A model generated the notes under the pieces. The model saw only the letters and a program-made list of their open reading frames with translations, did no database searches and was not told the DNA's origin. Of a DNA stretch of 32,000 nt, positions 526-31,696 are shown piece by piece. This DNA is from Gemmata obscuriglobus. Lineage in GTDB: Bacteria; Planctomycetota; Planctomycetia; Gemmatales; Gemmataceae. Numbering within the stretch: the first letter of the stretch is position 1; each line of letters begins with the position of its first letter. The stretch is from assembly GCF_008065095.1 (NCBI RefSeq), contig NZ_CP042911.1:5160001-5192000 (forward strand), read 5' to 3'. A program made the position numbers and the translations under genes.

Positions 526-616
526 GCCGAACAATGAGCTCACCTGCACCGCCATGATACAGTCAGCGACGCGTCCCGAATCACATGGCGGTGTCAGGTG
601 CAGCGCCGGGTTCGGC
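526..616 (-). repeat. attC-like site, class A
   Basis: gccgaac-aatg-agctcacctgcaccgcc / loop / ggcggtgTcaggtgCagcgccgg-gttcggc. This is the last (distal) site in the window. Confidence 0.8.
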
Positions 617-1051
617 TTCTGCGCTATCCCGCCAGTAGTCGCGGGGCCACACTCGATCCGGCGGCTGACCCAACTGCCAGGCGACGTACTCGGGCGGCGG
701 GTGGCCGATGTCGAGCACGTGCTCCGCCCGGAACGGTACCTCAGCCCCGAAGCACAGGTACACCCGGTCGGACCGTTCGAGGCACGCTGGCTGGTTGTCC
801 AGGATGCCGATGTACGTGTCGCCGACCCGCTCGGCCACGAGCACCCACATACGCTCCGACCGCACCCCGACCGACCCGTCGTTCTCGTAAGCCTCGATAT
901 GGAACAGCAGCTTAGCGGCGTCGCCGCGCTTGAGGCCGCGGCGCTGGTCGAGCGGGGGCACCCAGAACGTGTCGGGGTGCTGTCGGCTCAACTCCTCACC
1001 GGAGTCGATTTGCCAGTAATCACGCTCGAATGTGGCAAGCCGCACCGCCAC
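581..1051 (-). CDS. cassette protein, DUF2314-like (156 aa including attC-encoded tail)
   Basis: GTG 1051 lies 7 nt after GAGGG and 18 nt after attC 1070-1160. The pattern KLLFHIEAYENDG..SERMWVLV..GDTYIGILDNQP resembles DUF2314. It has no stop of its own and reads into attC 526-616, ending AEPGAAPDTAM. Confidence 0.65.
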   Translation of the reverse strand: MAVRLATFERDYWQIDSGEELSRQHPDTFWVPPLDQRRGLKRGDAAKLLFHIEAYENDGSVGVRSERMWVLVAERVGDTYIGILDNQPACLERSDRVYLCFGAEVPFRAEHVLDIGHPPPEYVAWQLGQPPDRVWPRDYWRDSAEAEPGAAPDTAM

Positions 1052-1069
1052 TCGAAAACCCTCTGGGTG

Positions 1070-1160
1070 GCCGAACAGAAAGCTCACCGGCACCGCCATC
1101 ACCGGATCAGCGATGCGTCCCGAATCAGCGGGCGGTGTCAGGTGCAGCGCCGGGTTCGGC
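1070..1160 (-). repeat. attC-like site, class A
   Basis: Class A palindrome with one stem mismatch (caccGg on the 5' arm). Confidence 0.8.
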
Positions 1161-1251
1161 TTTCTCATTGCTGCACACCTCGGTGACGACCGAGGCTCAC
1201 CAACTCTTGAGCCACGCATCGGGAACACCAACTCTCCTGGCACAGCTCCGG

Positions 1252-1569
1252 TCAAGGCGGCGCCTTCTCTACCCCATGCTTGCGCTCCGACTCCTCTCGT
1301 TCGCGTTGGTTCCTTACCCTTTCCTGAGCGTGCCGCACATGGCCGAGCGTGGCGATGATCGTGGCCCCGAACACCAGCGCCACGGATGCGAGAAGGAACA
1401 TGACCACGAAGCGCGGCCGCTGCGGCCACACGCCGGTGTAGAGCGCGATGAGGAGCCATCCCACCAATACCGCAGCCAATGCCAAGCAGGCACCCCAGAT
1501 CGCCACTTCGCCAGGGGTACTAGTTTCCCAGTCTGGCTCTGGAGTCAAAATGGCGTTGGCAAACACCAA
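1252..1569 (-). CDS. small membrane protein (105 aa, two hydrophobic helices)
   Basis: ORF track 1252..1569. TTG 1569 / GTG 1566 follows GAGGAG, about 15 nt after attC 1584-1674. It has its own stop. Confidence 0.6.
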   Translation of the reverse strand: MVFANAILTPEPDWETSTPGEVAIWGACLALAAVLVGWLLIALYTGVWPQRPRFVVMFLLASVALVFGATIIATLGHVRHAQERVRNQREREESERKHGVEKAPP

Positions 1570-1583
1570 TCGCTCCTCGGGTG

Positions 1584-1674
1584 GCCGAACGAACAGCTCA
1601 CCTGCACCGCCATCATCGGATGAGCGATGCGTCCCGAATCAGATGGCGGTGTCAGGTGCAGCGCCGGGTTCGGC
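1584..1674 (-). repeat. attC-like site, class A
   Basis: Class A palindrome: gccgaac..cacctgcaccgcc|loop|ggcggtgTcaggtg..gttcggc. Confidence 0.8.
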
Positions 1675-2230
1675 GTGCTTTTGGTGAGCCGTGGGTGCCG
1701 GAATCTGCTCCCGGCGCCACGCCACGGCCACGGCGGCCACCGCTCCGACCACCAGCCCCACGAGCAGCCCCTGTGACACGCCCGAACCGATGCCCACGTG
1801 CAGAGGGCTGAACCACGTCCCCACCGGCCGAAAATGCTCGGCGGGAGTACCCGGGGGCCGCCGCTCCGAGGAGATAACCGCCCCCGCCGCCGGCACACGC
1901 CCCGGCGAGGCCACTCAGGCACACGATCAGGTATGCCCGCAGGACCGACACGGCGCCCCCCAGACGCAGCCCCCGGATGAGCACGGTGACCGACCCGATG
2001 CACGCCGCGCCGCACAGGGCGGAGCCGCCCACCATGTCCGCCCACGCATGCTTGCGTGGGGCGTCGAACTCGGGCGAGCTGTACCGGATTAGCCCGGGGT
2101 AGCAACCCGGGAAGAAGCCGGGAGCGAACGTGTCCGTGAACGCAAAGACGATCTCCCCGACCTGCATGAACGCAAACCCGCCGGCCACGGCAGCAGCGAA
2201 CCCCAGTGCCACACAGCCGAGCCACCGCAT
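1639..2230 (-). pseudogene. multi-pass membrane protein cassette, apparently frameshifted
   Basis: The 5' part is frame 1652..2230 (MRWLGCVALGFAAAVAGGFAF...), with GC-rich third positions down to about 1850. After that, only frame 1639..1914 keeps GC3 and a hydrophobic helix (GVSQGLLVGLVVGAVAAVAVAW), and it ends in the usual attC tail AEPGAAPDTAI. The span is 592 nt, which is not a multiple of 3. Confidence 0.45.
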
Positions 2231-2250
2231 CCGCGCCTCCGGCTGGTCTT

Positions 2251-2341
2251 GCCGAACGTAAAGCTCACCTGCACCGCCATCACACGATGAGCGGTGCGTC
2301 CCGAATCAGCCGGCGGTGTCAGGTGCAGCGCCGGGTTCGGC
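2251..2341 (-). repeat. attC-like site, class A
   Basis: Class A palindrome: gccgaac..cacctgcaccgcc|loop|ggcggtgTcaggtg..gttcggc. Confidence 0.8.
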
Positions 2342-2698
2342 TCGCTCACGTCCGCGGTTCCGGGGCACACGCCCCGCGCCGCGCATCTGCGGATGCCCGC
2401 GGCACCGATGCGGCCGAGCGGAGCACCACCGACCCCACGCGCCGTGTCGCGGCCCATCGGAGGCCGGCCACCACCGCACCTCGCGGCGATGAGCCGCGCC
2501 GACCACCGGCGGGCACCACGCGGAGCACCCCCGACCCGAACCGCCGTGTCCCCACCCGCATCCCGGCCACGCCCAACCGCACCTCGCGGCGACGAGCCGC
2601 GCCCGCGCCCACCGGCACTCTGCGGAGCCCGACGCGCGGGGTTCACCCACGCGGACCACACGCACACCGCCGCACGGGCGCTCCAGCACGCGAGGGTG
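2342..2698 (-). repeat. ORF-less repeat cassette family R (2 internal units)
   Basis: Head, then 2 x ~102-nt unit (gcggagcaccaccgac..ccgtgtcc..cgcacctcgcggcgRYgagccgcgcc), then the long tail. There is no frame conserved with other copies. Confidence 0.8.
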
Positions 2699-2789
2699 GC
2701 CGAACAAATAGCTCACCTGCACCGCCCCCTCCCAGGGAGCGATGCGTCACAAACTCGCGGGCGGTGTCAGGTGCAGCGCCGGGTTCGGC
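2699..2789 (-). repeat. attC-like site, class A
   Basis: Class A palindrome with a variant loop (ccctcccagggagcgatgcgtcacaaactcgcg). Confidence 0.8.
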
Positions 2790-3147
2790 TCGATGCCCTC
2801 GGCGGTTCCGAGGTGGCACGCTCAGCATCGCGGCTCCGCGGAAGCCCGCCCACCGTCGCGGCCGAGCGGAGCACCACCGACCCACCCGCCGTGTCCCGGC
2901 CCATTGGAGGCTGGCACCAACCGCACCTGGCGGCGACGAGCCGCGCCAACCACCAGCGGGCGCCACGCGGAGCACCACCGACCCGAACCACCGTGTCCCC
3001 ACGCGCCGCCGGCCACGCCCAACCGCACCTCGCGGCGGCGAGCCGCGCCAGACACGACCGGCACCCCGCGGAACCCGACACAAGGGTTTCACCACCGCGG
3101 ACCACACGCCTCGCACCGCCGCACGCGCACTCATGCACGCGATGGTT
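2790..3147 (-). repeat. ORF-less repeat cassette family R (2 units)
   Basis: Same architecture as 2342-2698. Confidence 0.8.
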
Positions 3148-3238
3148 GCCGAACGAACAGCTCACCTGCACCGCCATCATACCGTCAGCGTTGCGTCCCA
3201 GACCAGATGGCGGTGTCAGGTGCAGCGCCGGGTTCGGC
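3148..3238 (-). repeat. attC-like site, class A
   Basis: Class A palindrome: gccgaac..cacctgcaccgcc|loop|ggcggtgTcaggtg..gttcggc. Confidence 0.8.
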
Positions 3239-3596
3239 TCGCTCACCACCGCGGTTCCGGGCCACGGGCCGAGCGTCGCGCATCCGCGGAGCCCGTGCCA
3301 CCGGTGCGGGCGTGCGGAGCACCACCGACTCGACGCACCGTGTCGCGGCCCACCGGAGGCCACCCACCACCGCCACGCGCGGCGATGAGCCGCGCCCGGC
3401 ACCCACGGGCACCACGCGGAGCACCACCGACTCGAACCGCCGTGTCCCCACGCGCCCCCGGCCACGCCCACCCGCACCTCGCGGCGACGAGCCGCGCCAG
3501 CCCCGCCCGGCCCCACGCGGAGCACCACACGTGGGGTTCACCCACGCGGACCACACGCACACCACCGCCGCACGCGCGCTCAGGAACGCGAGGGTG
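3239..3596 (-). repeat. ORF-less repeat cassette family R (2 units)
   Basis: Same architecture as 2342-2698. Confidence 0.8.
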
Positions 3597-3687
3597 GCCG
3601 AACATAAAGCTCACCTGCACCGCCATCATACCGTCAGCAACGCGTCACAAATCAGCGGGCGGTGTCAGGTGCAGCGCCGGGTTCGGC
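3597..3687 (-). repeat. attC-like site, class A
   Basis: Class A palindrome: gccgaac..cacctgcaccgcc|loop|ggcggtgTcaggtg..gttcggc. Confidence 0.8.
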
Positions 3688-3704
3688 ATCTGCGCAGCCC
3701 CCAG

Positions 3705-4136
3705 CTACCCGCCGTTGACCTCGGCCGCCACGACCCGACCATCCGGGCCGAAGTGAACGTACAGGAAGGCGTCGTCGAAGCCGTATGGGCCGAGGCCGCT
3801 CCAGCATCCCAGCCAGTACACCCACGTCTCCGGGTGGTCCAGTCGAACGCCGTACCCGTCCACCGGCCCCCGCGGGTCACGCGACGGTGGCTCGCCCTCG
3901 CCCAGCAGTTCCCGCACACGCTCTTTGGGCGTCCCAGCGGGCAGGTGGCGGATGGCGTCACGGGCCATCGGCCCCCGCCCCCGCTCGTCGGCGGCCGCCC
4001 ACGCCGCCGGGCTGAATGGGCGGTCGTCGAACGGGTCGAGATACCGGTCGAGCGCGACGAACCCGGCCACGCACCCGCGGGCCAACAGCAACGCGGCCAG
4101 GGCGAGCAAGCCGACGACACACTTCCACCGCCGCAT
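3705..4136 (-). CDS. secreted/lipoprotein-like cassette protein (143 aa)
   Basis: ATG 4136 has GAGG 9 nt upstream and lies 18 nt after attC 4154-4244. The N-terminus MRRWKCVVGLLALAALLLARGC is signal-peptide-like with a Cys. PAGTPKERVRELLGEGEP weakly recalls BamE/SmpA-OmlA small lipoproteins. It has its own stop. Confidence 0.7.
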   Translation of the reverse strand: MRRWKCVVGLLALAALLLARGCVAGFVALDRYLDPFDDRPFSPAAWAAADERGRGPMARDAIRHLPAGTPKERVRELLGEGEPPSRDPRGPVDGYGVRLDHPETWVYWLGCWSGLGPYGFDDAFLYVHFGPDGRVVAAEVNGG

Positions 4137-4153
4137 CTCGCACTGCCTCTGTT

Positions 4154-4244
4154 GCCGAACGAACAGCTCACCTGCACCGCCATCACCGGATGAGCGATGC
4201 GATCCAAACTACATGGCGGTGTCAGGTGCAGCGCCGGGTTCGGC
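4154..4244 (-). repeat. attC-like site, class A
   Basis: Class A palindrome, identical to 12271-12361. Confidence 0.8.
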
Positions 4245-4727: not shown

Positions 4728-4818
4728 GCCGAACAAACAGCTCACCTGCACCGCCACCATCGGATGAGCGATGCGTCCCAGATCAGATGGCGGTGTCAGG
4801 TGCAGCGCCGGGTTCGGC
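4728..4818 (-). repeat. attC-like site, class A
   Basis: Class A palindrome, identical to 12845-12935. Confidence 0.8.
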
Positions 4819-5151
4819 TTCTGCGCCCCGCGCCGCGCATCCGCGGAGCCCGCCCACCGACGCGGCCGAGCGGAGCCACCACCGACCCGCACCACCGTGC
4901 CGCGGCACACCGGTGGCCGCCCACCACCGACACCCGCGGCGATGAGCCGCGCCCGGCACCCACGGGCACCACGCGGAGCACCACCGCCACGAACCGCCGT
5001 GTCCCCCCCCGCCACCGGCCACGCCCACCGCAAGCTCGCGGCGACGAGCCGCGCCGGTCGCACTCGGGCACCACGCGGAGCCCGATACTCGCCGTTTACC
5101 ACCGCGGACCACACGCACACCACCGCACGCGCCATCGAGCGGCCTCGGGGT
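4819..5151 (-). repeat. ORF-less repeat cassette family R (2 units, short tail)
   Basis: Short tail type (ttctgcgccccgcgccgcgcatccgcggagc..). About the first 75 nt are identical to 12936-13267. Confidence 0.8.
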
Positions 5152-5242
5152 GCCGAACAACAAGCTCACCTGCACCGCCACGTCCCGAGCCGCGATGCGT
5201 CCCGAATCAGCGGGCGGTGTCAGGTGCAGCGCCGGGTTCGGC
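5152..5242 (-). repeat. attC-like site, class A
   Basis: Class A palindrome: gccgaac..cacctgcaccgcc|loop|ggcggtgTcaggtg..gttcggc. Confidence 0.8.
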
Positions 5243-5251
5243 GCGACCTCC

Positions 5252-5809
5252 TCAACCGAACTTGGCCTTCCGCTCCACAGGGGTCAGGCACCGATAGCAT
5301 ACCTCGCGCTGCGGGTCATCCTCGCGTGCCAGCGTCGGGGCACCGCACCGCTGGCATAGGTAGGCACGCCGCCCGACCTCCCACGGCACCGACGGGTCGA
5401 ATCCGCCCCGCTCTGCGTAGTACCGGGCGGCCCGCACCACCAGCTCCACGTCGCGGCAGATGTGCCGCTCACGGTCCCCGAACCCCTGCTCGATGAGCGG
5501 GCCATAGATCTCCACGTCCCGGTCGCCGCCGGCCGGGTCCTGGAACCGCCGCTGCAGGTAGCCGCCGTGGGTGCCCGCCAGCCAGTACACCCCGTCGCCA
5601 CCGGACACCTCGAACCGCTCGCAGAACTGGTCGTATTCGTGGCACGCCTCGTCCTCGGTCGGCCACAGGATCAGGATGGGGTGGGTCCGGCGGTCCAGCC
5701 GGCGGATCGCGGTCTCGATTGTCTCCCAGGACGGACGCACGGCCTTCTCCCTGCGATCCCGTCGCCCGTCCTGCAGGTAGGAGAGCGTTTCCAGCACCTT
5801 CGCGTGCAT
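5252..5809 (-). CDS. hypothetical cassette protein (185 aa) with C-terminal CxxC..CxxC pair
   Basis: ATG 5809 follows GAGGGGGAG, 17 nt after attC 5826-5917. CQRCG...CYRC lies near the C-terminus. Its own stop is 9 nt before attC 5152-5242. Confidence 0.75.
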   Translation of the reverse strand: MHAKVLETLSYLQDGRRDRREKAVRPSWETIETAIRRLDRRTHPILILWPTEDEACHEYDQFCERFEVSGGDGVYWLAGTHGGYLQRRFQDPAGGDRDVEIYGPLIEQGFGDRERHICRDVELVVRAARYYAERGGFDPSVPWEVGRRAYLCQRCGAPTLAREDDPQREVCYRCLTPVERKAKFG

Positions 5810-5825
5810 CGGCTCCCCCTCGGTT

Positions 5826-5917
5826 GCCGAACAATGAAGCTCACCTGCACCGCCATCATCGGATGAGCAATGCGTTCCAAGTCAGCCGGCGGTGTCAGGT
5901 GCAGCGCCGGGTTCGGC
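5826..5917 (-). repeat. attC-like site, class A
   Basis: Class A palindrome, 92 nt. Confidence 0.8.
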
Positions 5918-6319: not shown

Positions 6320-6410
6320 GCCGAACATAAAGCTCACCTGCACCGCCATCACCGGATGAGCGGTGCGTCCCAGAACAGATGGCGGTGTCAGGTGCAGCGC
6401 CGGGTTCGGC
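6320..6410 (-). repeat. attC-like site, class A
   Basis: Class A palindrome: gccgaac..cacctgcaccgcc|loop|ggcggtgTcaggtg..gttcggc. Confidence 0.8.
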
Positions 6411-6746: not shown

Positions 6747-6836
6747 GCCGAACAGAAAGCTCACCTGCACCGCCAAGATGGAGTGAGCGACACAACGGCG
6801 GCTGATGGCGGTGTCAGGTGCAGCGCCGGGTTCGGC
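6747..6836 (-). repeat. attC-like site, class A (minor loop type)
   Basis: Class A stems with the minor loop family (aagatggagtgagcgacacaacggcggctgat). Confidence 0.8.
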
Positions 6837-7196
6837 TCGCTCGCCTCCGCGGTTCCGGGCGACACGCCGAGCTTGGCGCATCCGCGGAACCCGCGGCACC
6901 GGTGCGGCCGAGCGGAGCCCCACCGACTCGAATCGCCGTGTCGCGGCCCACCGGTGGCCACCCATCACCGCACCTCGCGGCGACGAGCCGCGCCCGCCCT
7001 GACGCGCGCCACGCGGAGCACCACCGACCCGAACCGCCGTGTCCCCACCCGCACCCCGGCCACGCCCAACCACACCTCGCGGCGACGAGCCGCGCCCGCC
7101 CCGACCGGCACCACGCGGAGCCACCACCGACGCGTGGGCGTCACCTTCGCGGACCACACGCCCACCACCGCACGCGCGATCCAGAACGCGAAGGTG
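6837..7196 (-). repeat. ORF-less repeat cassette family R (2 units)
   Basis: Same architecture. Confidence 0.8.
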
Positions 7197-7287
7197 GCCG
7201 AACATAAAGCTCACCTGCACCGCCATCACACGATGAGCGGTGCGTCCCAACTCAGCCGGCGGTGTCAGGTGCAGCGCCGGGTTCGGC
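7197..7287 (-). repeat. attC-like site, class A
   Basis: Class A palindrome: gccgaac..cacctgcaccgcc|loop|ggcggtgTcaggtg..gttcggc. Confidence 0.8.
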
Positions 7288-7643: not shown

Positions 7644-7734
7644 GCCGAACATACAGCTCACCTGCACCGCCATCATCGGATGAGCGGTGCGTCACAAGTC
7701 AGCGGGCGGTGTCAGGTGCAGCGCCGGGTTCGGC
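7644..7734 (-). repeat. attC-like site, class A
   Basis: Class A palindrome: gccgaac..cacctgcaccgcc|loop|ggcggtgTcaggtg..gttcggc. Confidence 0.8.
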
Positions 7735-8607: not shown

Positions 8608-8624
8608 CGCTTACGCCTCTGGTT

Positions 8625-22328: not shown

Positions 22329-22336
22329 CTGCCTTG

Positions 22337-24405: not shown

Positions 24406-24444
24406 CACCGAGACTCCACGGAACTCCAATGCCGGGCTTCTTCC

Positions 24445-24535: not shown

Positions 24536-24541
24536 GTGCCT

Positions 24542-25033: not shown

Positions 25034-25053
25034 CGCCGAAAAGCCCTCGGGTT

Positions 25054-25143
25054 GCCGAACATACAGCTCACCTGCACCGCCAGGATACAGTGAGCACCAC
25101 AACGGCGGCAGATGGCGGTGTCAGGTGCAGCGCCGGGTTCGGC
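25054..25143 (-). repeat. attC-like site, class A (minor loop type)
   Basis: Class A stems with the minor loop (aggatacagtgagcaccacaacggcggcagat). Identical to 25502-25591. Confidence 0.8.
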
Positions 25144-25501: not shown

Positions 25502-25591
25502 GCCGAACATACAGCTCACCTGCACCGCCAGGATACAGTGAGCACCACAACGGCGGCAGATGGCGGTGTCAGGTGCAGCGCCGGGTTCGGC
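25502..25591 (-). repeat. attC-like site, class A (minor loop type)
   Basis: Identical to 25054-25143 (tandem duplication). Confidence 0.8.
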
Positions 25592-25949
25592 TCGCTCGCC
25601 TCCGCGGTTCCGAGCGACACGTCCAGCGCCGCGCATCCGCGGAGCCCGGGCCACCGGTGCGGCCGAGCGGAGCAGCACCGACCCGACGCGCCGTGCGCGG
25701 CCCATCGGAGGCCGGCCACCACCGCACCTCGCGGCGACGAGCCGCGCCCGCCCTGACGCGCGCCCCGCGGAGCACCACCGACCCGGACCGCCGTGTCCCC
25801 ACCCGCCGACGGCCACGCCCAACCGCACCGCGCGGCGGCGAGCCGCGCCACACACCCACGGGCGCCACGCGGAGCGCCACACCACCGCCGGACGCCCCGC
25901 GGACCACACGCCCAGCTCTGCCGCACGCGCCCTCATGCACGCGATGGTA
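25592..25949 (-). repeat. ORF-less repeat cassette family R (2 units)
   Basis: Identical to 25144-25501. Confidence 0.8.
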
Positions 25950-26040
25950 GCCGAACGAACAGCTCACCTGCACCGCCATCACACGATGAGCGGTGCGTCA
26001 CAATACAGCGGGCGGTGTCAGGTGCAGCGCCGGGTTCGGC
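25950..26040 (-). repeat. attC-like site, class A
   Basis: Class A palindrome: gccgaac..cacctgcaccgcc|loop|ggcggtgTcaggtg..gttcggc. Confidence 0.8.
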
Positions 26041-26396
26041 TCGCTGCCGTCCGCGGTTCCGGGCGACACGCCGAGCGCCGCGCATCTGCGGATGCCCGCG
26101 GCACCGGTGCGACCGGGCGGAGTGCTACCGACTCGATGCGCCGTGTCCCGGCCCATCGAGGGCCACGCCCACCGCTACACGCGGCGACGAGCCGCGCCCC
26201 TACCCACGGGCACCACGCGGAGCGCCACCGACCCGAACCGCCGTGTCCCCACACACCGCCGGCCACGCCCAACCGCACCTCGCGGCGACGAGCCGCGCCA
26301 GCACCGACCGGCACCACGCGAAGCCCGACACGCGAGACTCACCACCGCGGACCACACGCTCAGCGCCGCCGCACGCGCCCTCATGCCCTCGGGGTT
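26041..26396 (-). repeat. ORF-less repeat cassette family R (2 units)
   Basis: Same architecture. Confidence 0.8.
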
Positions 26397-26486
26397 GCCG
26401 AACATAAAGCTCACCTGCACCGCCATCACCGGATGAGCGGTGCGTCCAAATCAGATGGCGGTGTCAGGTGCAGCGCCGGGTTCGGC
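26397..26486 (-). repeat. attC-like site, class A
   Basis: Class A palindrome, 90 nt. Confidence 0.8.
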
Positions 26487-26750
26487 CTCTGCCGCTCGCA
26501 GGTGGAGGAAACTGCCGTCGGACGCAAGCTCCCGCACCCGCTGCCACACCTCGGCCCCGATGCCGACCAACACCGGCCCGGTGGCCTCCTCGCCCTCGCG
26601 GAACACGGCGACCCGATGGTTGATGGTCGGCCCGACGGCGCACCACGAGGTGCAGTTGTAGTTGGCCCCGCACGCCGGGCACCGCAGCAGGAAGCTGCCG
26701 TGCTGGACGGCGCTAACGAGCGGGCCATTGCATTGGACGCACGGAATCAT
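26451..26750 (-). CDS. zinc-ribbon miniprotein cassette (99 aa including attC tail)
   Basis: ATG 26750 lies 19 nt after attC 26769-26859. It has CVQCNG...CPACG pairs and ends AEPGAAPDTAI in attC 26397-26486. Confidence 0.6.
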   Translation of the reverse strand: MIPCVQCNGPLVSAVQHGSFLLRCPACGANYNCTSWCAVGPTINHRVAVFREGEEATGPVLVGIGAEVWQRVRELASDGSFLHLRAAEAEPGAAPDTAI

Positions 26751-26768
26751 CGCAGCGCCCTTCCGGTG

Positions 26769-26859
26769 GCCGAACGAACAGCTCACCTGCACCGCCATCA
26801 CCGGATGAGCGGTGCGTCCCAAACCCGATGGCGGTGTCAGGTGCAGCGCCGGGTTCGGC
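26769..26859 (-). repeat. attC-like site, class A
   Basis: Class A palindrome: gccgaac..cacctgcaccgcc|loop|ggcggtgTcaggtg..gttcggc. Confidence 0.8.
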
Positions 26860-27293: not shown

Positions 27294-27384
27294 GCCGAAC
27301 ATAAAGCTCACCGGCCGCGGGACCACGCGACACGGTCGGGAAAGTACGTATTTGACCGCGGTCCGGTGCAGCGCCGGGTTCGGC
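27294..27384 (-). repeat. attC-like site, class A with covarying inner stems
   Basis: gccgaac-ataa-agctcaccgg-ccgcgg / loop / ccgcgg-T-ccggtg-C-agcgccgg-gttcggc. Both inner stems are replaced by compensatory sequences, while the boxes and both bulged bases are kept. Confidence 0.75.
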
Positions 27385-27511
27385 TTCTTCGCTCACCGTC
27401 GCGCATCTGCGTAGCCCGCGCCCGCATGGCGCATCCGCAGCGACCGCGCCCACCGCCGCGCATCCGCGGAGCGGGACCGGCACGCCGGTGTGAGTCCCCG
27501 GCCATAATAAC

Positions 27512-27778
27512 TCAGCCGCTCGGAGCAGCGAATGCACAGGTCCCACCCACCCTGACCTCGGCCACATCCGTGAGCGCGAAGTTCATGAACGCCCCAACCG
27601 GGATGGAACCCGCCGCGACAGTCAGGATCTCGGCAATGACATCGCCGCCGGCATCCGCGTGAGCCGTCGAGATGACCCGCACCCCATACGCCTCGCCGTC
27701 GTAGAAGCGGATCACTGCATCCGCGGATGAGCGATCTAACTCGTGCAGGAGAGATAAGAGGTTGCCGTCTATCGCCAC
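27512..27778 (-). CDS. hypothetical cassette protein (88 aa)
   Basis: ORF track 27512..27778. GTG lies 7 nt after GGAGG. Its own stop is followed by a 127-nt non-coding tail (27385-27511) that resembles the R-cassette tail. Confidence 0.55.
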   Translation of the reverse strand: MAIDGNLLSLLHELDRSSADAVIRFYDGEAYGVRVISTAHADAGGDVIAEILTVAAGSIPVGAFMNFALTDVAEVRVGGTCAFAAPSG

Positions 27779-27803
27779 CTTCGCGCCTCCGTCTCCTTCT
27801 GCC

Positions 27804-27894
27804 GCCGAACATAAAGCTCACCTGCACCGCCATCACCGGATGAGCGGTGCGCCCCCAATCAGCCGGCGGTGTCAGGTGCAGCGCCGGGTTCGGC
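27804..27894 (-). repeat. attC-like site, class A
   Basis: Class A palindrome, differing by 1 nt from 28860-28950. Confidence 0.8.
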
Positions 27895-28318: not shown

Positions 28319-28409
28319 GCCGAACATAAAGCTCACCTGCACCGCCATCATCGGACAAGCGATGCGTTCCAGATCAGCGGGCGGTGTCAGGTGCAGCGCC
28401 GGGTTCGGC
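28319..28409 (-). repeat. attC-like site, class A
   Basis: Class A palindrome: gccgaac..cacctgcaccgcc|loop|ggcggtgTcaggtg..gttcggc. Confidence 0.8.
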
Positions 28410-28439
28410 TTGCCTTCGGGCACTGTGACTCCGTAAGCA

Positions 28440-28808
28440 TCAAGTGGAACCGGACAACTCGGCGTGGGTCAGCACCCACGGGCACTCCATGCTCGCGTCG
28501 TGACGGAGCGTGAGCCGGTATGGGCCGCCGGGCAACGTGTCGCTCTCGGTCGTGCGCTCGGCGGTTGCGACCACGAAGCCGTCGCCGACTTCGACGACGC
28601 GCCCCGTGAGGATGGCCCATCCCCCGTCCTCTGTCCACACCTGCACCTTGACGCGGTGCCGCACGGCCGGCGGTTCGCCTGGCAGTAGCCACTCGCCGCG
28701 CTGCTCGGGGCGCACTTGGAGGATGTGGGCGACGAGGTCGTCCCTATGGAACCCCTCGACGATTCCGCACGCCATCGTTGGGGGTGGGTCGGCATCAACG
28801 TCGCTCAT
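28440..28808 (-). CDS. hypothetical cassette protein (122 aa)
   Basis: ORF track 28440..28808. ATG follows TGAGG, with a 51-nt leader after attC 28860-28950. It has its own stop. Confidence 0.65.
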   Translation of the reverse strand: MSDVDADPPPTMACGIVEGFHRDDLVAHILQVRPEQRGEWLLPGEPPAVRHRVKVQVWTEDGGWAILTGRVVEVGDGFVVATAERTTESDTLPGGPYRLTLRHDASMECPWVLTHAELSGST

Positions 28809-28859
28809 GGACGACCTCAGGAAGCGAAATCTGCCGGTTCACTCCCGCAGGCTTCCGCC

Positions 28860-28950
28860 GCCGAACATAAAGCTCACCTGCACCGCCCTCACCGGATGAG
28901 CGGTGCGCCCCCAATCAGCCGGCGGTGTCAGGTGCAGCGCCGGGTTCGGC
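28860..28950 (-). repeat. attC-like site, class A
   Basis: Class A palindrome, differing by 1 nt from 27804-27894. Confidence 0.8.
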
Positions 28951-29374: not shown

Positions 29375-29465
29375 GCCGAACATAAAGCTCACCTGCACCG
29401 CCATCATCGGATGAGCGGCGGGGTCCGAATCACATGGCGGTGTCAGGTGCAGCGCCGGGTTCGGC
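29375..29465 (-). repeat. attC-like site, class A
   Basis: Class A palindrome: gccgaac..cacctgcaccgcc|loop|ggcggtgTcaggtg..gttcggc. Confidence 0.8.
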
Positions 29466-29732
29466 TTCTTGCGGCGCCTCTGCCAGACCGCGCATCTGGT
29501 ATCGACGAGGCCCCTCGACGGTGACCGCGGCCCCGCCTTCGCAGATGACATGCGTGCCGTAGGCCGACTCGACAACCGTCAGCGACGGCACCGCGTCCAA
29601 CCCGACAGCGGTAACGACGCACTCCTCGCCGGGTCGAAGGGCGACGCTGAAGTCGCTTGGGACGACCTCCACTAACCGGTCGGCCCCGCTGTCAGCGTCG
29701 TTGCACACACACAGGCGAACGACGAGGCTCAT
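29430..29732 (-). CDS. hypothetical cassette protein (100 aa including attC tail)
   Basis: ATG 29732 lies 9 nt after AGAGGG and 19 nt after attC 29751-29841. It is in frame with track ORF 29430..29858 and ends AEPGAAPDTAM in attC 29375-29465. Confidence 0.6.
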   Translation of the reverse strand: MSLVVRLCVCNDADSGADRLVEVVPSDFSVALRPGEECVVTAVGLDAVPSLTVVESAYGTHVICEGGAAVTVEGPRRYQMRGLAEAPQEAEPGAAPDTAM

Positions 29733-29750
29733 CCGATGCGTCCCTCTGGT

Positions 29751-29841
29751 GCCGAACATAAAGCTCACCTGCACCGCCATCACACGATGAGCAGTGCGTC
29801 CCAAATCAGCGGGCGGTGTCAGGTGCAGCGCCGGGTTCGGC
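29751..29841 (-). repeat. attC-like site, class A
   Basis: Class A palindrome: gccgaac..cacctgcaccgcc|loop|ggcggtgTcaggtg..gttcggc. Confidence 0.8.
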
Positions 29842-30249
29842 GTCTGGGGCGCCGCCAACCACCTGCCGCCGGTACGCCTGCCACGCCGTGTAAGCCGCCC
29901 CCAACTCCGAAGGCTCGAAGAACCCGCTGTCGGTGCCAGGGGCGAGTGCCCTCAGCCGCAACTCGCGGAGTATGTCGGCGATGACAAACCGCGCCTCCTC
30001 GGCGCCGCGAACGTGGAAGGCGAAGCTGTCCAGTACTTCCGCGGGGCCGATGTTGACCTCGATGCTGAACCCCGGCCCGTCGATCACGCCCCACGTCGGG
30101 TCGGCGAAGTTGGTCGCCGGTACCGCTCGGAGGATGCCGGCCACGATGTCCGCTCGCCGGCCGATGGGCTGTGGGGCGAAGTCGTCCGGGATCTCCGCCA
30201 CCGTGCGGGTGTCGAGCGGCAGGTCTTGGACAAACACGTCGAAGCTCAC
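29806..30249 (-). CDS. hypothetical cassette protein (147 aa including attC tail)
   Basis: ORF track 29806..30249. GTG follows GGAGGG, 14 nt after class C attC 30263-30352. It ends AEPGAAPDTAR in attC 29751-29841. Confidence 0.7.
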   Translation of the reverse strand: MSFDVFVQDLPLDTRTVAEIPDDFAPQPIGRRADIVAGILRAVPATNFADPTWGVIDGPGFSIEVNIGPAEVLDSFAFHVRGAEEARFVIADILRELRLRALAPGTDSGFFEPSELGAAYTAWQAYRRQVVGGAPDAEPGAAPDTAR

Positions 30250-30262
30250 CGCGCCCTCCGCC

Positions 30263-30409
30263 GCCGCATGTGGAGCTCACCTGCTCGCGCGCCCTGGAGG
30301 GGGCGATCCCCGAGTTCTGCATGCGCGAGTCTGGTGCAGCGGAGGGTTCGGCCCCGCGCCCCACCACGCCGAACATGGGCTGCCCGTGAAGGTGAGCTCC
30401 ACATTCGGC
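30263..30409 (-). repeat. attC-like site, class C composite (147 nt) with mutated R' box
   Basis: Duplicate of 18259-18405 (offset 12004). Confidence 0.65.
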
Positions 30410-30548
30410 CCCGCTCATGCAGCCCGGCAGATGAGCTACACCGATCCGCTCGCGCCTCGGGGGTGGGCGCGGGTCGGGCCAGCCACTTGGGATGGGGGGC
30501 TGGCTACCCTATCGACATCGCGCCCACCCCCGTGGGTCTCGGCGCGGG
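30410..30548 (-). repeat. ORF-less structured cassette T, copy 2 of 2
   Basis: Duplicate of 18406-18544. Confidence 0.65.
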
Positions 30549-30639
30549 GCCGAACAATGAGCTCACCTGCACCGCCATCACCGGATGAGCGGTGCGTCCC
30601 AAGTCCGATGGCGGTGTCAGGTGCAGCGCTGGGTTCGGC
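30549..30639 (-). repeat. attC-like site, class A
   Basis: Class A palindrome with a variant 3' spacer (cagcgctgggttcggc). Confidence 0.8.
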
Positions 30640-30895
30640 TCGATGCCCTCGGCGTTTCCGGGTTGCACGCCGAGCGCCGCGCCTCCGCGGAGCCCGCGGC
30701 ACCGGTGCGTGCGGGCGGAGCATCACCGCCTCGATGCGCCGTGTCGCGGCCCACCGAGGGCCACCCACCACTGCACCTCGCGGCGATGAGCCGCGCCAGC
30801 ACCGACCGGCACCAGGCGGAGCCCGACACACGGGTTTCACCACCGCGGGCCACACGCCTACTGCCGCCGCACGCGCGCTCCTGCGACCTCGGGTT
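30640..30895 (-). repeat. ORF-less repeat cassette family R (1 unit)
   Basis: A single unit, 256 nt in total. Confidence 0.8.
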
Positions 30896-30985
30896 GCCGA
30901 ACAAATAGCTCACCTGCACCGCCCGTCCCGATGAGCGATGCGTCCCAAGTCAGACGGCGGTGTCAGGTGCAGCGCCGGGTTCGGC
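30896..30985 (-). repeat. attC-like site, class A
   Basis: Class A palindrome, 90 nt, with a loop related to 21811-21900. Confidence 0.8.
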
Positions 30986-30992
30986 GTCCGGG

Positions 30993-31592
30993 CTACCCAA
31001 GCCGCTGAGCCATCCCAGGCATCGACCGGACCCACTCGACACCCCCGATCCGGGCGTTCTCGGCTGGGTCGCGCCGGCACTTCTCGTACACGCCCTGCCA
31101 ATAGTCGAGTCGGGCCTCGTGCCCGTCCACCGCCCCGAACACCCAAGCGGAGAAAGACTCGGGCGGCCGCTCCTCATCCGTGATTGGCTCCGGGTCGCCG
31201 TCGAACCCGCAATGCGTCAGCGGGTCGTCCGCCGCGAGGTGTGCGGCGAACACCATCCCGCTGTGGCTGTGGAACGCGAACACCATGTGCGGCCCCGCCG
31301 ACCAGTGGACGACCGGCGGCGGGTCGCCCTCGATCATGGTGGCGAGATCGGTCAGGAACACCTCGCCGTCGATCGTGGCCTCCAGGAAGCAAGCTAGTGG
31401 CAGGGAGGCGTAGAGCTCCCGCACAGCCGCCGGAATCTGGAACCCATGCCGGGCCTCGAACTCCGCAACCCCGGAATCGGTGCCGAGGGCGCGGAACCAG
31501 TCCGGCACCCTGTCGTGAGCGGCCAGTACCTCCGGGTAACGGAGGTAGCCGCGGACTTCAGCGAGGTCGAGAGCACGCTGCAAGTACCGCAT
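30993..31592 (-). CDS. SUKH/SMI1-KNR4-like cassette protein (199 aa)
   Basis: ORF track 30993..31592. ATG lies 5 nt after GGAGG. VAEFEARHGFQIPAAVRELYASLPL...MVFAFHSHSGMVFAAHL fits the SUKH layout, less clearly than 27859..28302. It has its own stop. Confidence 0.7.
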   Translation of the reverse strand: MRYLQRALDLAEVRGYLRYPEVLAAHDRVPDWFRALGTDSGVAEFEARHGFQIPAAVRELYASLPLACFLEATIDGEVFLTDLATMIEGDPPPVVHWSAGPHMVFAFHSHSGMVFAAHLAADDPLTHCGFDGDPEPITDEERPPESFSAWVFGAVDGHEARLDYWQGVYEKCRRDPAENARIGGVEWVRSMPGMAQRLG

Positions 31593-31605
31593 CCGCGCCT
31601 CCGCC

Positions 31606-31696
31606 GCCGAATAACAAGCTCACCTGCACCGCCATCGCCGAGTGAGCGGTGCGCTCCAAGTCAGCGGGCGGTGTCAGGTGCAGCGCCGGGTTCGGC
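31606..31696 (-). repeat. attC-like site, class A with variant R' box
   Basis: The 5' box on + is gccgaaT, so the top-strand R' reads ATTCGGC instead of GTTCGGC. The rest is class A. Confidence 0.7.

What the first reader, a model, noticed from the sequence alone, without database searches (positions are those of the whole stretch)
526..31696. The whole window is one unidirectional integron-type cassette array with 65 attC-like sites and a slightly non-canonical core (GCCGAAC / GTTCGGC)
Seen in the sequence: there are 58 near-identical ~91-nt elements, plus 4 class B, 2 class C and 1 decayed copy. All lie in one orientation with a mean spacing of about 490 bp. Each is an imperfect palindrome with outer boxes GCCGAAC...GTTCGGC. 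These compare with integron R'' RYYYAAC and R' GTTRRRY, with one position off consensus. The inner stems are CACCTG+CACCGCC / GGCGGTG+CAGGTG. Two unpaired bases (T and C, with 6 paired bases between them) always sit on the 3' arm of the + strand. Every credible ORF is on the minus strand, starts 15-25 nt after GTTCGGC, and ends 0-20 nt before or inside the next GCCGAAC. The structure is therefore [ORF-attC] cassettes, with the minus strand as top strand and the + strand as the folded bottom strand carrying the extrahelical bases. Identical cassettes occur next to different neighbours. Family X appears at 4245, 10833 and 12362. The S+B unit follows Y, R and S cassettes. The T+C unit sits upstream of two unrelated genes. 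In each case homology breaks at the boxes. Established knowledge: this is the defining architecture of integron cassette arrays and CALINs. Extrahelical bases on one arm are what IntI uses for strand choice. High attC homogeneity is typical of sedentary chromosomal integrons. Inference: intI/attI, if present, lies beyond 32000, and the array is at least 31 kb long. The host is probably a Gemmata-like planctomycete, judged from the TIGR02996 protein and the high GC content.
Basis: partly seen in the sequence, partly recalled or inferred. Interest (0 to 1): 0.85.

Follow-up and report, generated by a model that had tools for sequence, protein, structure and literature searches.

The report
Gemmata integron cassette array without integrase
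The window is about half of a very large integron gene-cassette array in the chromosome of the planctomycete Gemmata obscuriglobus, a real and well-formed example of a known kind of element that a published genome survey has already catalogued.

Summary
The window carries 64 co-oriented ~91-nt imperfect palindromes (GCCGAAC...GTTCGGC), on average 493 bp apart. Compensatory changes support the fold, and two bulged bases always sit on the same arm. The window is the reverse complement of Gemmata obscuriglobus CP025958.1:2828374-2860373. The array runs at least 66.8 kb with at least 131 sites, and I did not reach its upstream end.

The integron reading is supported. Identical cassettes recur in shuffled order. 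Some recur in a second array 3.8 Mb away. Identity typically starts inside the upstream GTTCGGC box and ends at the cassette's own GTTCGGC box, which is the unit TTCGGC-body-attC-G. The second array starts with a genuine integron integrase (TIGR02249, 415 bits against a cutoff of 265) and an attI site ending in GTTCGGC.

I found no integrase or attI in the 34.8 kb examined beyond position 32000. The array fits the 133-attC cluster without integrase (CALIN) that IntegronFinder 2.0 Table S3 lists for this assembly, next to one complete integron and three other CALINs.

So the finding is already known. The residual interest is that about 43% of the cassettes are gene-less. One non-coding family supplies 21 of the 63 cassettes and the first three cassettes at attI.

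The parts
526..31696 (-). Integron-type cassette array: 64 attC sites and 63 complete cassettes. The top (coding) strand is the minus strand. The array continues past 32000.
1..506 (-). Left end of a multicopy IS-like element (128-aa ORF at 20-406) that bounds the distal end of the array. Its homology to other copies starts at 502-506, which is 20-24 nt after the last attC.
31697..32000 (-). Partial cassette 64 body: S-family, gene-less, with units starting at 31933 and 31832
526..616 (+). attC site 1, class A (+ strand is the folding bottom strand, as for all sites below)
1070..1160 (+). attC site 2, class A
1584..1674 (+). attC site 3, class A
2251..2341 (+). attC site 4, class A
2699..2789 (+). 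attC site 5, class A
3148..3238 (+). attC site 6, class A
3597..3687 (+). attC site 7, class A
4154..4244 (+). attC site 8, class A
4728..4818 (+). attC site 9, class A
5152..5242 (+). attC site 10, class A
5826..5917 (+). attC site 11, class A
6320..6410 (+). attC site 12, class A
6747..6836 (+). attC site 13, class A
7197..7287 (+). attC site 14, class A
7644..7734 (+). attC site 15, class A
8076..8166 (+). attC site 16, class A
8625..8715 (+). attC site 17, class A
9215..9305 (+). attC site 18, class A
9539..9629 (+). attC site 19, class A
10065..10155 (+). attC site 20, class A
10741..10832 (+). attC site 21, class A
11316..11406 (+). attC site 22, class A
11703..11793 (+). attC site 23, class A
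12271..12361 (+). attC site 24, class A
12845..12935 (+). attC site 25, class A
13268..13359 (+). attC site 26, class A
13769..13860 (+). attC site 27, class B (different inner-stem sequence, same bulged T and C; right box GGTCGGC)
14095..14185 (+). attC site 28, class A
14539..14629 (+). attC site 29, class A
15065..15155 (+). attC site 30, class A
15488..15578 (+). attC site 31, class A
16257..16347 (+). attC site 32, class A
16704..16795 (+). attC site 33, class B
17030..17120 (+). attC site 34, class A
17480..17570 (+). attC site 35, class A
17783..17873 (+). attC site 36, class A
18259..18348 (+). attC site 37, class C. The left box on the + strand is GCCGCAT, so the top-strand R' reads ATGCGGC (degenerate).
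18545..18636 (+). attC site 38, class A
19259..19350 (+). attC site 39, class A
20008..20098 (+). attC site 40, class A
20644..20735 (+). attC site 41, class A
21283..21372 (+). attC site 42, class A
21811..21900 (+). attC site 43, class A
22237..22328 (+). attC site 44, class A
22738..22829 (+). attC site 45, class B (right box GGTCGGC)
23064..23155 (+). attC site 46, class B
23390..23480 (+). attC site 47, class A
23817..23907 (+). attC site 48, class A
24445..24535 (+). attC site 49, class A (best-scoring site; folded)
25054..25143 (+). attC site 50, class A
25502..25591 (+). attC site 51, class A
25950..26040 (+). attC site 52, class A
26397..26486 (+). attC site 53, class A
26769..26859 (+). 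attC site 54, class A
27294..27384 (+). attC site 55, class A variant whose inner stems changed on both sides and still pair
27804..27894 (+). attC site 56, class A
28319..28409 (+). attC site 57, class A
28860..28950 (+). attC site 58, class A
29375..29465 (+). attC site 59, class A
29751..29841 (+). attC site 60, class A
30263..30352 (+). attC site 61, class C (top-strand R' reads ATGCGGC)
30549..30639 (+). attC site 62, class A
30896..30985 (+). attC site 63, class A
31606..31696 (+). attC site 64, class A with left box GCCGAAT
617..1069 (-). cassette 1 body: ORF 581-1051, 156 aa
1161..1583 (-). cassette 2 body: ORF 1252-1569, 105 aa
1675..2250 (-). cassette 3 body: ORF 1652-2230, 192 aa (weak periodicity)
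2342..2698 (-). cassette 4 body: S-family, gene-less
2790..3147 (-). cassette 5 body: S-family, gene-less
3239..3596 (-). cassette 6 body: S-family, gene-less
3688..4153 (-). cassette 7 body: ORF 3705-4136, 143 aa
4245..4727 (-). cassette 8 body: ORF 4252-4707, 151 aa, family X
4819..5151 (-). cassette 9 body: S-family, gene-less
5243..5825 (-). cassette 10 body: ORF 5252-5809, 185 aa
5918..6319 (-). cassette 11 body: probable ORF 5925-6302, 125 aa
6411..6746 (-). cassette 12 body: S-family, gene-less
6837..7196 (-). cassette 13 body: S-family, gene-less
7288..7643 (-). cassette 14 body: S-family, gene-less
7735..8075 (-). cassette 15 body: S-family, gene-less
8167..8624 (-). cassette 16 body: probable ORF 8131-8607, 158 aa
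8716..9214 (-). cassette 17 body: ORF 8726-9187, 153 aa
9306..9538 (-). cassette 18 body: S-family (one unit), gene-less
9630..10064 (-). cassette 19 body: ORF 9594-10046, 150 aa
10156..10740 (-). cassette 20 body: ORF 10161-10727, 188 aa, TIGR02996 domain
10833..11315 (-). cassette 21 body: ORF 10840-11295, 151 aa, family X
11407..11702 (-). cassette 22 body: has a coding signal; the ORF from 11685 reads through its attC in frame into family X
11794..12270 (-). cassette 23 body: ORF 11807-12181, 124 aa, Imm1
12362..12844 (-). cassette 24 body: ORF 12369-12824, 151 aa, family X
12936..13267 (-). cassette 25 body: S-family, gene-less
13360..13768 (-). cassette 26 body: ORF 13368-13751, 127 aa, family Y
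13861..14094 (-). cassette 27 body: B unit, gene-less, ending in an extra perfect half-site
14186..14538 (-). cassette 28 body: S-family, gene-less
14630..15064 (-). cassette 29 body: ORF 14650-15048, 132 aa
15156..15487 (-). cassette 30 body: S-family, gene-less
15579..16256 (-). cassette 31 body: ORF 15919-16236, 105 aa, SMI1_KNR4 fragment; lower G+C
16348..16703 (-). cassette 32 body: S-family, gene-less
16796..17029 (-). cassette 33 body: B unit, gene-less, ending in an extra perfect half-site (16832-16856)
17121..17479 (-). cassette 34 body: S-family, gene-less
17571..17782 (-). cassette 35 body: ORF 17535-17765, 76 aa
17874..18258 (-). cassette 36 body: ORF 17918-18235, 105 aa
18349..18544 (-). 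cassette 37 body: T unit, gene-less
18637..19258 (-). cassette 38 body: ORF 18643-19242, 199 aa
19351..20007 (-). cassette 39 body: ORF 19315-19971, 218 aa, SMI1_KNR4
20099..20643 (-). cassette 40 body: ORF 20063-20626, 187 aa
20736..21282 (-). cassette 41 body: ORF 20742-21266, 174 aa
21373..21810 (-). cassette 42 body: S-family (three units), gene-less
21901..22236 (-). cassette 43 body: S-family, gene-less
22329..22737 (-). cassette 44 body: ORF 22337-22720, 127 aa, family Y
22830..23063 (-). cassette 45 body: B unit, gene-less
23156..23389 (-). cassette 46 body: B unit, gene-less
23481..23816 (-). cassette 47 body: S-family, gene-less
23908..24444 (-). cassette 48 body: ORF 24097-24429, 110 aa (uncertain)
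24536..25053 (-). cassette 49 body: ORF 24542-25033, 163 aa
25144..25501 (-). cassette 50 body: S-family, gene-less
25592..25949 (-). cassette 51 body: S-family, gene-less (identical to cassette 50)
26041..26396 (-). cassette 52 body: S-family, gene-less; 100% identical copies in array 2
26487..26768 (-). cassette 53 body: ORF 26451-26750, 99 aa
26860..27293 (-). cassette 54 body: ORF 26862-27302, 146 aa; 100% identical copies in array 2
27385..27803 (-). cassette 55 body: ORF 27512-27778, 88 aa
27895..28318 (-). cassette 56 body: ORF 27859-28308, 149 aa, SMI1_KNR4
28410..28859 (-). cassette 57 body: ORF 28440-28808, 122 aa
28951..29374 (-). cassette 58 body: ORF 28915-29364, 149 aa, SMI1_KNR4 (identical to cassette 56)
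29466..29750 (-). cassette 59 body: ORF 29430-29732, 100 aa
29842..30262 (-). cassette 60 body: ORF 29806-30249, 147 aa
30353..30548 (-). cassette 61 body: T unit, gene-less (identical to cassette 37)
30640..30895 (-). cassette 62 body: S-family (shortened), gene-less
30986..31605 (-). cassette 63 body: ORF 30993-31592, 199 aa

Best explanation
The window is the distal 31 kb of a sedentary chromosomal integron cassette array in Gemmata obscuriglobus. The array spans at least CP025958.1:2793836-2859848 and has at least 131 attC sites. It has no integrase of its own in the DNA I could see, which makes it a CALIN. Each cassette is TTCGGC, then a body (an ORF or a non-coding sequence), then a ~91-nt attC ending in G.

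Inferred from the established integron mechanism, not shown here:
- When the DNA is single-stranded, the + strand (bottom strand) of an attC folds into a hairpin. The hairpin has a 7-bp R box, a 5x5 unpaired spacer, and an L stem with bulged C and T on the 3' arm. These bulges tell the integron integrase which strand to use.
- The integrase is encoded 3.8 Mb away (WP_010036109.1) at the head of a complete integron with the same attC type. It cuts between A and C of GCCGAA|C (G|TTCGGC on the top strand).
- It excises cassettes by attC x attC recombination and reinserts them, mainly at attI (...CACTAAACACTG|GTTCGGC) of the complete integron.
- The CALIN thus serves as a cassette store that exchanges with the complete integron.
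- An IS-like element bounds the array's distal end and another IS lies inside it. This suggests that IS-mediated rearrangement separated the array from an integrase.

Shown here: the site architecture and its covariation; the strand polarity relative to the ORFs; cassette-exact duplication and shuffling within and between arrays; and the presence of intI and attI in the genome and next to homologous arrays in related species. Not shown: the recombination chemistry, current activity, and how the cassettes are expressed.
For: Sites: 64 co-oriented sites against 0.01 expected. The fold is the minimum-free-energy structure. Pairing is 99.2% in the window, with 8 compensated pairs. Across 150 sites from other Gemmata genomes pairing is 96.5%, with 103 doubly changed cells in the L stem while the R box shows no compensatory change.

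Polarity: the ORFs lie on the strand whose 5' arm carries the extra bases, and each attC lies downstream of its ORF, as in canonical cassettes.

Mobility: among 176 cassettes from two arrays, 22 bodies occur two or more times. In 30 of 45 pairs identity upstream ends within the 7-12 nt of the upstream R' box. In 18 of 45 pairs (23 if up to 6 nt of chance extension is allowed) it ends exactly at the cassette's own R' box, after carrying the variable loop and the 3' spacer. Fourteen pairs link the two arrays. Cassette order is shuffled between segments.

Integrase: the G. obscuriglobus IntI scores 415 bits on TIGR02249 (cutoff 265). The six catalytic positions, taken from my recollection of IntI1, are conserved, and the stretch I recall as the IntI-specific segment aligns without a gap. 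It is followed by an attI ending in GTTCGGC and then by cassettes with the same attC type. The same intI-attI-array layout occurs in four related loci.

Distribution: there are no sites in about 46 kb of non-array DNA from the same genome.

Independent support: IntegronFinder 2.0 Table S3 lists a 133-attC CALIN and a 78-attC complete integron for this assembly (PMC9024848).
Against: The outer boxes depart from the RYYYAAC/GTTRRRY consensus at one position. The L-box bulged base is C, whereas I recall G as the usual base. No intI or attI lies within the array or in the 34.8 kb examined upstream of the window. The last roughly 1-19 kb upstream were not seen. In 17 of 45 duplicate pairs identity breaks inside the cassette's own attC (at the loop or the 3' spacer), which points to mutation or homologous exchange alongside site-specific events. 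No experimental evidence for recombination or excision exists here.
Confidence: 0.92

Rival explanations
1. The array is the cassette part of a second complete integron whose own intI and attI lie just upstream of the DNA I could fetch (between CP025958.1:2774805 and 2793597).
For: The array is still running at the upstream edge of L068. About 18.8 kb between L003 and L068 was never seen. A divergent second intI could hide as a non-representative member of a 90% cluster, as the known one did.
Against: The exact IntI sequence occurs at only one place in the chromosome. IntegronFinder 2.0 lists one complete integron (78 attC) and classes the 133-attC element as a CALIN. My count of 131 leaves room for only about two more sites. 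No IntI-like or attI-like sequence is present in L068 or L070.
Confidence: 0.05
2. The array is a fossil. The sites once served an integrase, but the present duplications and reshuffling come from homologous recombination and unequal crossing-over between the near-identical 91-nt repeats, not from site-specific recombination.
For: The repeats share 30-nt and 17-nt identical stretches that could support homologous exchange. In 17 of 45 pairs identity breaks inside the cassette's own attC, and some blocks of two or three cassettes are duplicated together.
Against: Upstream breakpoints fall in the 7-nt R' box in 30 of 45 pairs (67%). If crossovers were spread over the conserved stretches by length, about 13% would be expected (7 of 54 nt; my calculation). 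An intact integrase with all catalytic residues and an attI is kept in the genome. Identical cassettes are shared between arrays 3.8 Mb apart.
Confidence: 0.08
3. The 91-nt elements are intergenic repeated palindromes of the REP/BIME or MITE kind, or transcription terminators of a long operon, unrelated to integrons.
For: They are GC-rich imperfect palindromes located between genes.
Against: All copies share one orientation and occur only in arrays. None was found in about 46 kb of other DNA from the genome. The asymmetric bulges are conserved through compensatory change. Whole [body + site] units recur with box-exact boundaries. Homologous arrays start at an integron integrase and an attI in five loci. 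No T tract follows the hairpins.
Confidence: 0.01

Closest known systems
CALIN (cluster of attC sites lacking an integron integrase), as defined by IntegronFinder (Cury et al. 2016, PMC4889954; Neron et al. 2022, PMC9024848)
   Same: It has two or more attC sites with no intI nearby. IS elements sit at and inside the cluster. intI is encoded elsewhere in the same replicon. This very assembly is listed with a 133-attC CALIN.
   Different: It is far larger than the typical CALIN. Cury et al. report that 83% have fewer than six sites and that the maximum in their 2016 set was 114.
Vibrio cholerae superintegron with VCR-type attC sites (a sedentary chromosomal integron)
   Same: Both have well over a hundred cassettes, highly homogeneous attC sites shared across a genus, mostly unknown small ORFs, paralogous cassettes, and gene-less cassettes (the rest from my own knowledge).
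   Different: intI is divergent from the cassettes in Vibrio but co-oriented here. The attC is ~91 nt with GTTCGGC boxes and C/T bulges. My recollection, not tested here, is that VCRs are ~120-130 nt with T and G bulges. Gene-less cassettes number 9 in V. cholerae N16961 but make up about 43% here. The G. obscuriglobus cassettes are split over five clusters.
Treponema denticola-type 'atypical' integrons with intI transcribed towards attI
   Same: intI is upstream of and co-oriented with the cassettes (PMC3607928; seen here in L065, L038, L023, L009 and L010). Gene-less cassettes with promoters have been reported in Treponema (cited in PMC11014356).
   Different: The phylum, array size and attC sequence all differ. 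I made no phylogeny of the integrases.
Planctomycetes attC class of Ghaly et al. 2021 (covariance model from 188 chromosomal attCs; PMC8352920)
   Same: It shows that chromosomal integrons with phylum-typical attC sites are already recognised in Planctomycetes.
   Different: I could not run that model, so I do not know whether the Gemmata sites were among its 188 training sequences.

Membership tests
integron attC site | Outer inverted boxes R'' and R' with the conserved AAC...GTT triplets at the crossover | tested here: met
   GCCGAAC...GTTCGGC occurs in 59 of 64 sites exactly. The R-box pairs show no compensatory change across 150 sites from other genomes.
integron attC site | Full box consensus RYYYAAC / GTTRRRY | tested here: not met
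   One position is off: GCCGAAC has G where Y is expected, and GTTCGGC has C where R is expected (read directly). The attI sites of this lineage end in the same GTTCGGC, so this is a lineage variant.
integron attC site | Unpaired central spacer between the R box and the L box | tested here: met
   A 5x5 internal loop (for example ATAAA opposite GCCGG) is present in every fold.
integron attC site | Imperfect L''/L' pairing with an extrahelical base on the 3' ('') arm of the bottom strand, three base pairs after the spacer | tested here: met
   A bulged C follows the 3-bp GCT/AGC helix, and a second bulged T lies 6 bp further in. Both are on the 3' arm of the + strand in all classes. The model scores 58-111 bits on that strand and 33-44 on the other. 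The base is C, whereas I recall G as the usual one.
integron attC site | Structure conserved more than sequence (compensatory change in stems, variable loop) | tested here: met
   8 compensated pairs in the window and 103 doubly changed cells in relatives; 0 of 500 shuffles reach this.
integron attC site | One site downstream of each cassette body, all co-oriented, with the ORF on the top strand | tested here: met
integron attC site | Detected by the IntegronFinder attC covariance model | not testable with these tools
   The model is not available here. The published run on this assembly reports 345 attC sites in five elements, one of them with 133 (PMC9024848 Table S3).
integron attC site | Recombined by an integron integrase as folded single-stranded DNA | not testable with these tools
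   This needs experiments. There is indirect support only, from the box-exact cassette boundaries.
complete integron | intI next to the array | tested here: not met
   No IntI-like sequence was found in 66.8 kb of merged array plus about 6 kb distal flank. The upstream edge was not reached.
complete integron | attI site at the head of the array | tested here: not met
   The attI motif TCGCACACTAAAC and the attI region of array 2 have no counterpart in the window, L001, L061, L068 or L070.
CALIN | Two or more attC sites with no intI nearby | tested here: met
   At least 131 sites with no intI in the DNA seen. The element is also listed as a CALIN in the published table.
integron integrase IntI (for the genome's WP_010036109.1, outside the window) | Passes the integron-integrase model, keeps the RKHRHY catalytic residues, and carries the IntI-specific extra segment | tested here: met
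   TIGR02249 gives 415 bits (cutoff 265) on the 301 residues available. All six catalytic columns are invariant, and the segment corresponding to IntI1 ~210-250 aligns without a gap. The IntI1 reference sequence and the identity of these positions come from my memory.
sedentary chromosomal integron | Chromosomal, more than 10-19 attC sites, homogeneous attC sites shared within a taxon | tested here: met
   At least 131 sites, with identical arms in class A sites. The same 30-mer is present in G. algarum, Gemmata sp. SMAG_U3706, Gemmata sp. IIL30 and Gemmataceae CJuql4.
REP/BIME or MITE | Copies scattered over the genome in both orientations | tested here: not met
   There were no hits in L003, L005, L066 1-10000 or the distal flank, about 46 kb in all. 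This sampling is limited. The source genome was not returned by the whole-collection scan.

The most novel reading that the evidence does not exclude
The gene-less cassettes are functional non-coding modules rather than debris. The S family consists of bodies of about 230-440 nt built from 100-103-nt tandem units. It makes up 21 of the 63 cassettes in the window, supplies the first three cassettes after attI in G. obscuriglobus and the first in another lineage, and is conserved at 80-86% identity in G. algarum. The B unit carries a second, perfectly complementary half-site and is the first cassette after attI in three other lineages. These could be promoter or regulatory cassettes that drive expression of an otherwise promoter-less array whose intI is co-oriented. 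Alternatively they could be a self-amplifying non-coding cassette lineage.
Probability: 0.35. Interest if true: 0.55.

Novelty: already known. Interest (0 to 1): 0.3.

Why it matters
It shows that a reader working from raw sequence alone can recognise an integron array, its polarity and its host. The genome carries 345 predicted attC sites, most of them away from the single integrase. That makes it a good natural case for asking how clusters without an integrase arise (IS elements bound and interrupt this one) and whether they still exchange cassettes with the complete integron. Identical cassettes in both arrays suggest they do. The coding cassettes with a family match are mainly toxin-immunity-type proteins (SMI1_KNR4/SUKH, Imm1, and Barstar just outside the window). 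The very high share of gene-less cassettes is the one feature for which I found no description in the papers I searched.

Tried and rejected
- Rfam found nothing at gathering thresholds over the whole window. A permissive scan of three S cassettes gave only a chance miRNA hit.
- The consensus fold of 39 S-family units showed essentially no covariation (term -0.07). No RNA structure is claimed.
- The sigma-70 promoter scan of 13000-19000 gave 0 sites, and terminator-like sites were at chance level.
- Two searches of the protein collection with Gemmata-type IntI seemed to show no G. obscuriglobus integrase. This was an artefact: the protein is a non-representative member of the P0071 cluster.
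- Looking up three near relatives (P0085, P0029, P0054) led only to metagenome contigs. These were still useful for the attI comparison.
It then worked through a homologue search and through duplicated cassettes, but stopped at CP025958.1:2793597 without reaching the end of the array.
- The whole-collection DNA scan did not return G. obscuriglobus itself, so a genome-wide census of the sites was not possible.
- Full-text searches for Gemmata plus integron found no paper that discusses this array.
- CRISPR-like and Xer/dif-module readings were considered and dropped. The repeats are 91-nt structured sites in one orientation that flank coding bodies, and the associated recombinase is an IntI.

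Full report
**Observation.** An exact pattern search finds 59 copies of GCCGAAC-N50-80-GTTCGGC, all on the + strand, where shuffles give 0.01. Reading the remaining isolated boxes adds two class B copies whose right box is GGTCGGC, two class C copies whose left box is GCCGCAT, and one copy with GCCGAAT. A covariance model built from the 64 aligned elements finds exactly these 64 on the + strand at 58-111 bits. The same loci score only 33-44 bits on the other strand. The elements are therefore asymmetric, not simple palindromes. Mean spacing is 493 bp.

**Structure.** Folded as single-stranded DNA, the + strand forms a 7-bp outer helix, a 5x5 internal loop, 3 bp, a bulged C, 6 bp, a bulged T, 7 bp or more, and a variable loop. 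On the window alignment 99.2% of cells pair and 8 pairs show changes on both sides. No shuffle out of 500 reaches this, and slid controls pair at 26-43%. In 150 further sites taken from other Gemmata genomes, pairing is 96.5% and there are 103 doubly changed cells, all in the inner stem, while the outer box shows no compensatory change. That pattern fits a recombinase site whose outer box is read by sequence and whose inner stem is read by shape. Classes B and C and the variant at 27294 have different inner-stem sequences but keep both bulges.

**Source and extent.**
- A window protein maps to Gemmata obscuriglobus CP025958.1.
- Merging the loci I fetched with the reverse complement of the window gives a conflict-free 66,777-bp stretch, CP025958.1:2793597-2860373 (window = 2828374-2860373), holding 131 sites.
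- The array is still running at the upstream edge of this stretch.
- A DDE transposase gene interrupts the array.
- At the distal end, a multicopy IS-like element begins 20-24 nt after the last site. It encodes a 128-aa and a ~403-aa protein with no Pfam match and is 99% identical to a copy at 2.764 Mb.
- No site occurs in the next several kb.

**Coding content.** About 36 cassettes carry a minus-strand ORF with GC1/GC2/GC3 near 0.72/0.50/0.87. The ORFs start mostly 10-25 nt (up to about 50) after GTTCGGC, and mostly stop 2-30 nt before the next site (a few further upstream) or inside it at +23 or +36. In the +36 cases the protein ends with the attC-encoded tail AEPGAAPDTA. Pfam recognises SMI1_KNR4/SUKH in four distinct proteins (five cassettes) and Imm1 in one, and NCBIfam finds a TIGR02996 domain in one. 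The rest have no family match above cutoff. Just outside the window the gene tables show Barstar, ribosomal S21-like and DUF6959 proteins. Twenty-seven cassettes show no codon periodicity: 21 of an S family, four B units and two T units.

**Is it an integron array? Cassette boundaries.** The decisive test was where identity between repeated cassettes begins and ends.
- Cassettes 52 and 54 are 100% identical to copies in a second array at 6.64 Mb.
- Cassettes 7, 9, 13, 37, 49, 50, 54, 56, 59 and family X recur upstream in a different order.
- In individual pairs, identity runs through the body and the whole downstream site, including its variable loop and 3' spacer. It stops right after GTTCGGC. 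Upstream it covers only the 7-8 nt of the preceding GTTCGGC.
- Over 176 cassettes and 45 duplicate pairs, the upstream break lies in the R' box in 30 pairs. The downstream break lies at the cassette's own R' box in 18 pairs, or 23 if a few chance matches are allowed. Fourteen pairs link the two arrays.
- If crossovers were spread over the conserved stretches by length, I calculate that about 13% would fall in the 7-nt box. The observed figure is 67%.
- The repeated unit is therefore TTCGGC-body-attC-G, which is the definition of an integron cassette.
- The remaining pairs break inside the site. Mutation or homologous exchange also contributes.

**Is it an integron array? Integrase and attI.**
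- A lookup of cassette 54's protein brought in the head of the second array. It starts with a 322-aa tyrosine recombinase, WP_010036109.1, which NCBI names 'integron integrase [Gemmata obscuriglobus]'.
- The 301 residues I could read score 415 bits on TIGR02249 (cutoff 265).
- Aligned with IntI1, whose sequence I supplied from memory, the six catalytic columns are invariant and the segment I recall as IntI-specific aligns without a gap.
- Downstream lies an attI region with two GTTATTG(C/T)GC repeats, ending in TCGCACACTAAACACTG-GTTCGGC. It is followed by cassettes with the same attC type.
- No sites occur upstream of intI.
- The same layout occurs in Gemmataceae CJuql4, a Planctomycetota MAG, Gemmata sp. 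SMAG_U3706 and several metagenome contigs: intI co-oriented with the cassettes, then an attI ending in GTTCGGC (GTTATGG in L010).
- Co-oriented intI is a known atypical arrangement, described for Treponema (PMC3607928).

**What the window's array lacks.**
- No IntI-like or attI-like sequence is present anywhere in the 66.8 kb.
- The exact IntI sequence occurs only once in the chromosome.
- IntegronFinder 2.0 Table S3 lists five elements for this assembly (GCF_003149495.1): CALINs with 39, 47, 133 and 48 attC sites and one complete integron with 78 (PMC9024848).
- With at least 131 sites, the window's array can only be the 133-site CALIN.
- The finding is thus correct and already catalogued, although I found no paper that discusses it.

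**Mechanism.** By analogy with characterised integrons, the + strand folds when single-stranded. IntI binds the R and L boxes, with the bulged bases fixing the strand. It cuts at GCCGAA|C, excises cassettes by attC x attC recombination, and inserts them at attI of the complete integron. This step is established knowledge, not tested here. The CALIN would act as a store served in trans, an idea Cury et al. raise for CALINs in genomes that encode IntI. The IS elements at and within the array fit their proposal that IS-mediated rearrangement creates CALINs. Expression is unknown. [quoted passage not shown]

**Departures from the textbook.** The boxes miss the RYYYAAC/GTTRRRY consensus at one position. 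The L-box bulge is C. There is a second conserved bulged T. intI is co-oriented with the cassettes. About 43% of cassettes are gene-less, whereas V. cholerae N16961 has nine gene-less cassettes. All of these are variations within the known kind.

**Verdict.** Novelty: already known. Interest is modest and rests on the gene-less cassette families.

Noticed in passing
window 2342-3596, 4819-5151, 6411-8075 and 15 further cassette bodies; L065 1073-2257: S family: 21 of 63 cassette bodies are 75-100% alike. They have no codon periodicity, contain 1-nt indels, and are built from one to three tandem units of 100-103 nt (43 units in the window, all on the top strand). Each unit starts with an invariant hairpin, CGCGGC-TCRYC-GCCGCG. 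S cassettes are the first three after attI in G. obscuriglobus and the first in L055-57, and they occur at 80-86% identity in G. algarum and Gemmata sp. SMAG_U3706. Their function is unknown.
   Followed up: partly
window 13769-14094, 16704-17029, 22738-23063, 23064-23389; L059 1394-1722; L038 957-1290: B unit: a 234-nt gene-less body plus a class B attC. About 36 nt upstream of the attC (top strand) lies a second GCCGAAC half-site. It is perfectly complementary to the 3' arm, with no bulges and no spacer. In the 150-nt fold this 25-bp perfect helix outcompetes the attC fold (-50.9 kcal/mol). The unit is conserved in other lineages and is the first cassette after attI in L038, L058 and L059/L060.
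   Followed up: partly
window 18259-18544 and 30263-30548; L061 4472-4757: T unit with class C attC. In both window copies the top-strand R' box reads ATGCGGC and is followed by unrelated genes. In the copy in L061 it reads ATTCGGC. How a site without GTT came to sit in front of two different cassettes is unexplained.
   Followed up: partly
window, every class A attC, e.g. 24445-24535: Read on the top strand, the attC supplies stop codons in two frames. One is TGA at positions 21-23, which contains the bulged base. The other is TGA at 34-36 at the start of the loop. Twelve of the 28 distinct ORFs end inside the site with the tail AEPGAAPDTA plus one residue.
   Followed up: yes
window 1-506; L003 10001-11654; L070 14726-15937: A multicopy element encodes a 128-aa and a ~403-413-aa protein with no Pfam match. 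Copies are 99% identical. One copy bounds the distal end of the array (about 2.860 Mb) and another lies at 2.764 Mb in the same orientation, so the two bracket the whole array. It is probably an unclassified insertion sequence.
   Followed up: partly
L068 5286-6281 (CP025958.1 about 2798882-2799877): A DDE_Tnp_1/DDE_5 transposase gene sits inside the array between two attC sites.
   Followed up: no
window 27294-27302: The start codon called for cassette 54's ORF (ATG TTC GGC) is formed by the 3' spacer of the upstream attC plus its R' box. That start therefore depends on which cassette lies upstream. A second in-frame ATG follows eight codons later.
   Followed up: no
window 10840-11685: The ORF of cassette 22 has no stop codon before or inside its attC. 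It runs in frame into the family X ORF of cassette 21, giving a 281-aa reading frame that genome annotation calls as one gene.
   Followed up: no
L010 (CAZKIQ010000141.1): A contig binned as 'uncultured Alcaligenaceae' carries a Gemmata-type intI fragment, an attI ending in GTTATGG, and attC sites including the exact Gemmata 30-mer. It is probably a mis-binned planctomycete contig.
   Followed up: no
window and L001/L061/L062 gene tables: The cassettes with a family match are mostly immunity-type proteins (SMI1_KNR4/SUKH, Imm1, Barstar). Repeated ribosomal-protein-S21-like cassettes also occur. The arrays look like stores of toxin-immunity genes.
   Followed up: partly
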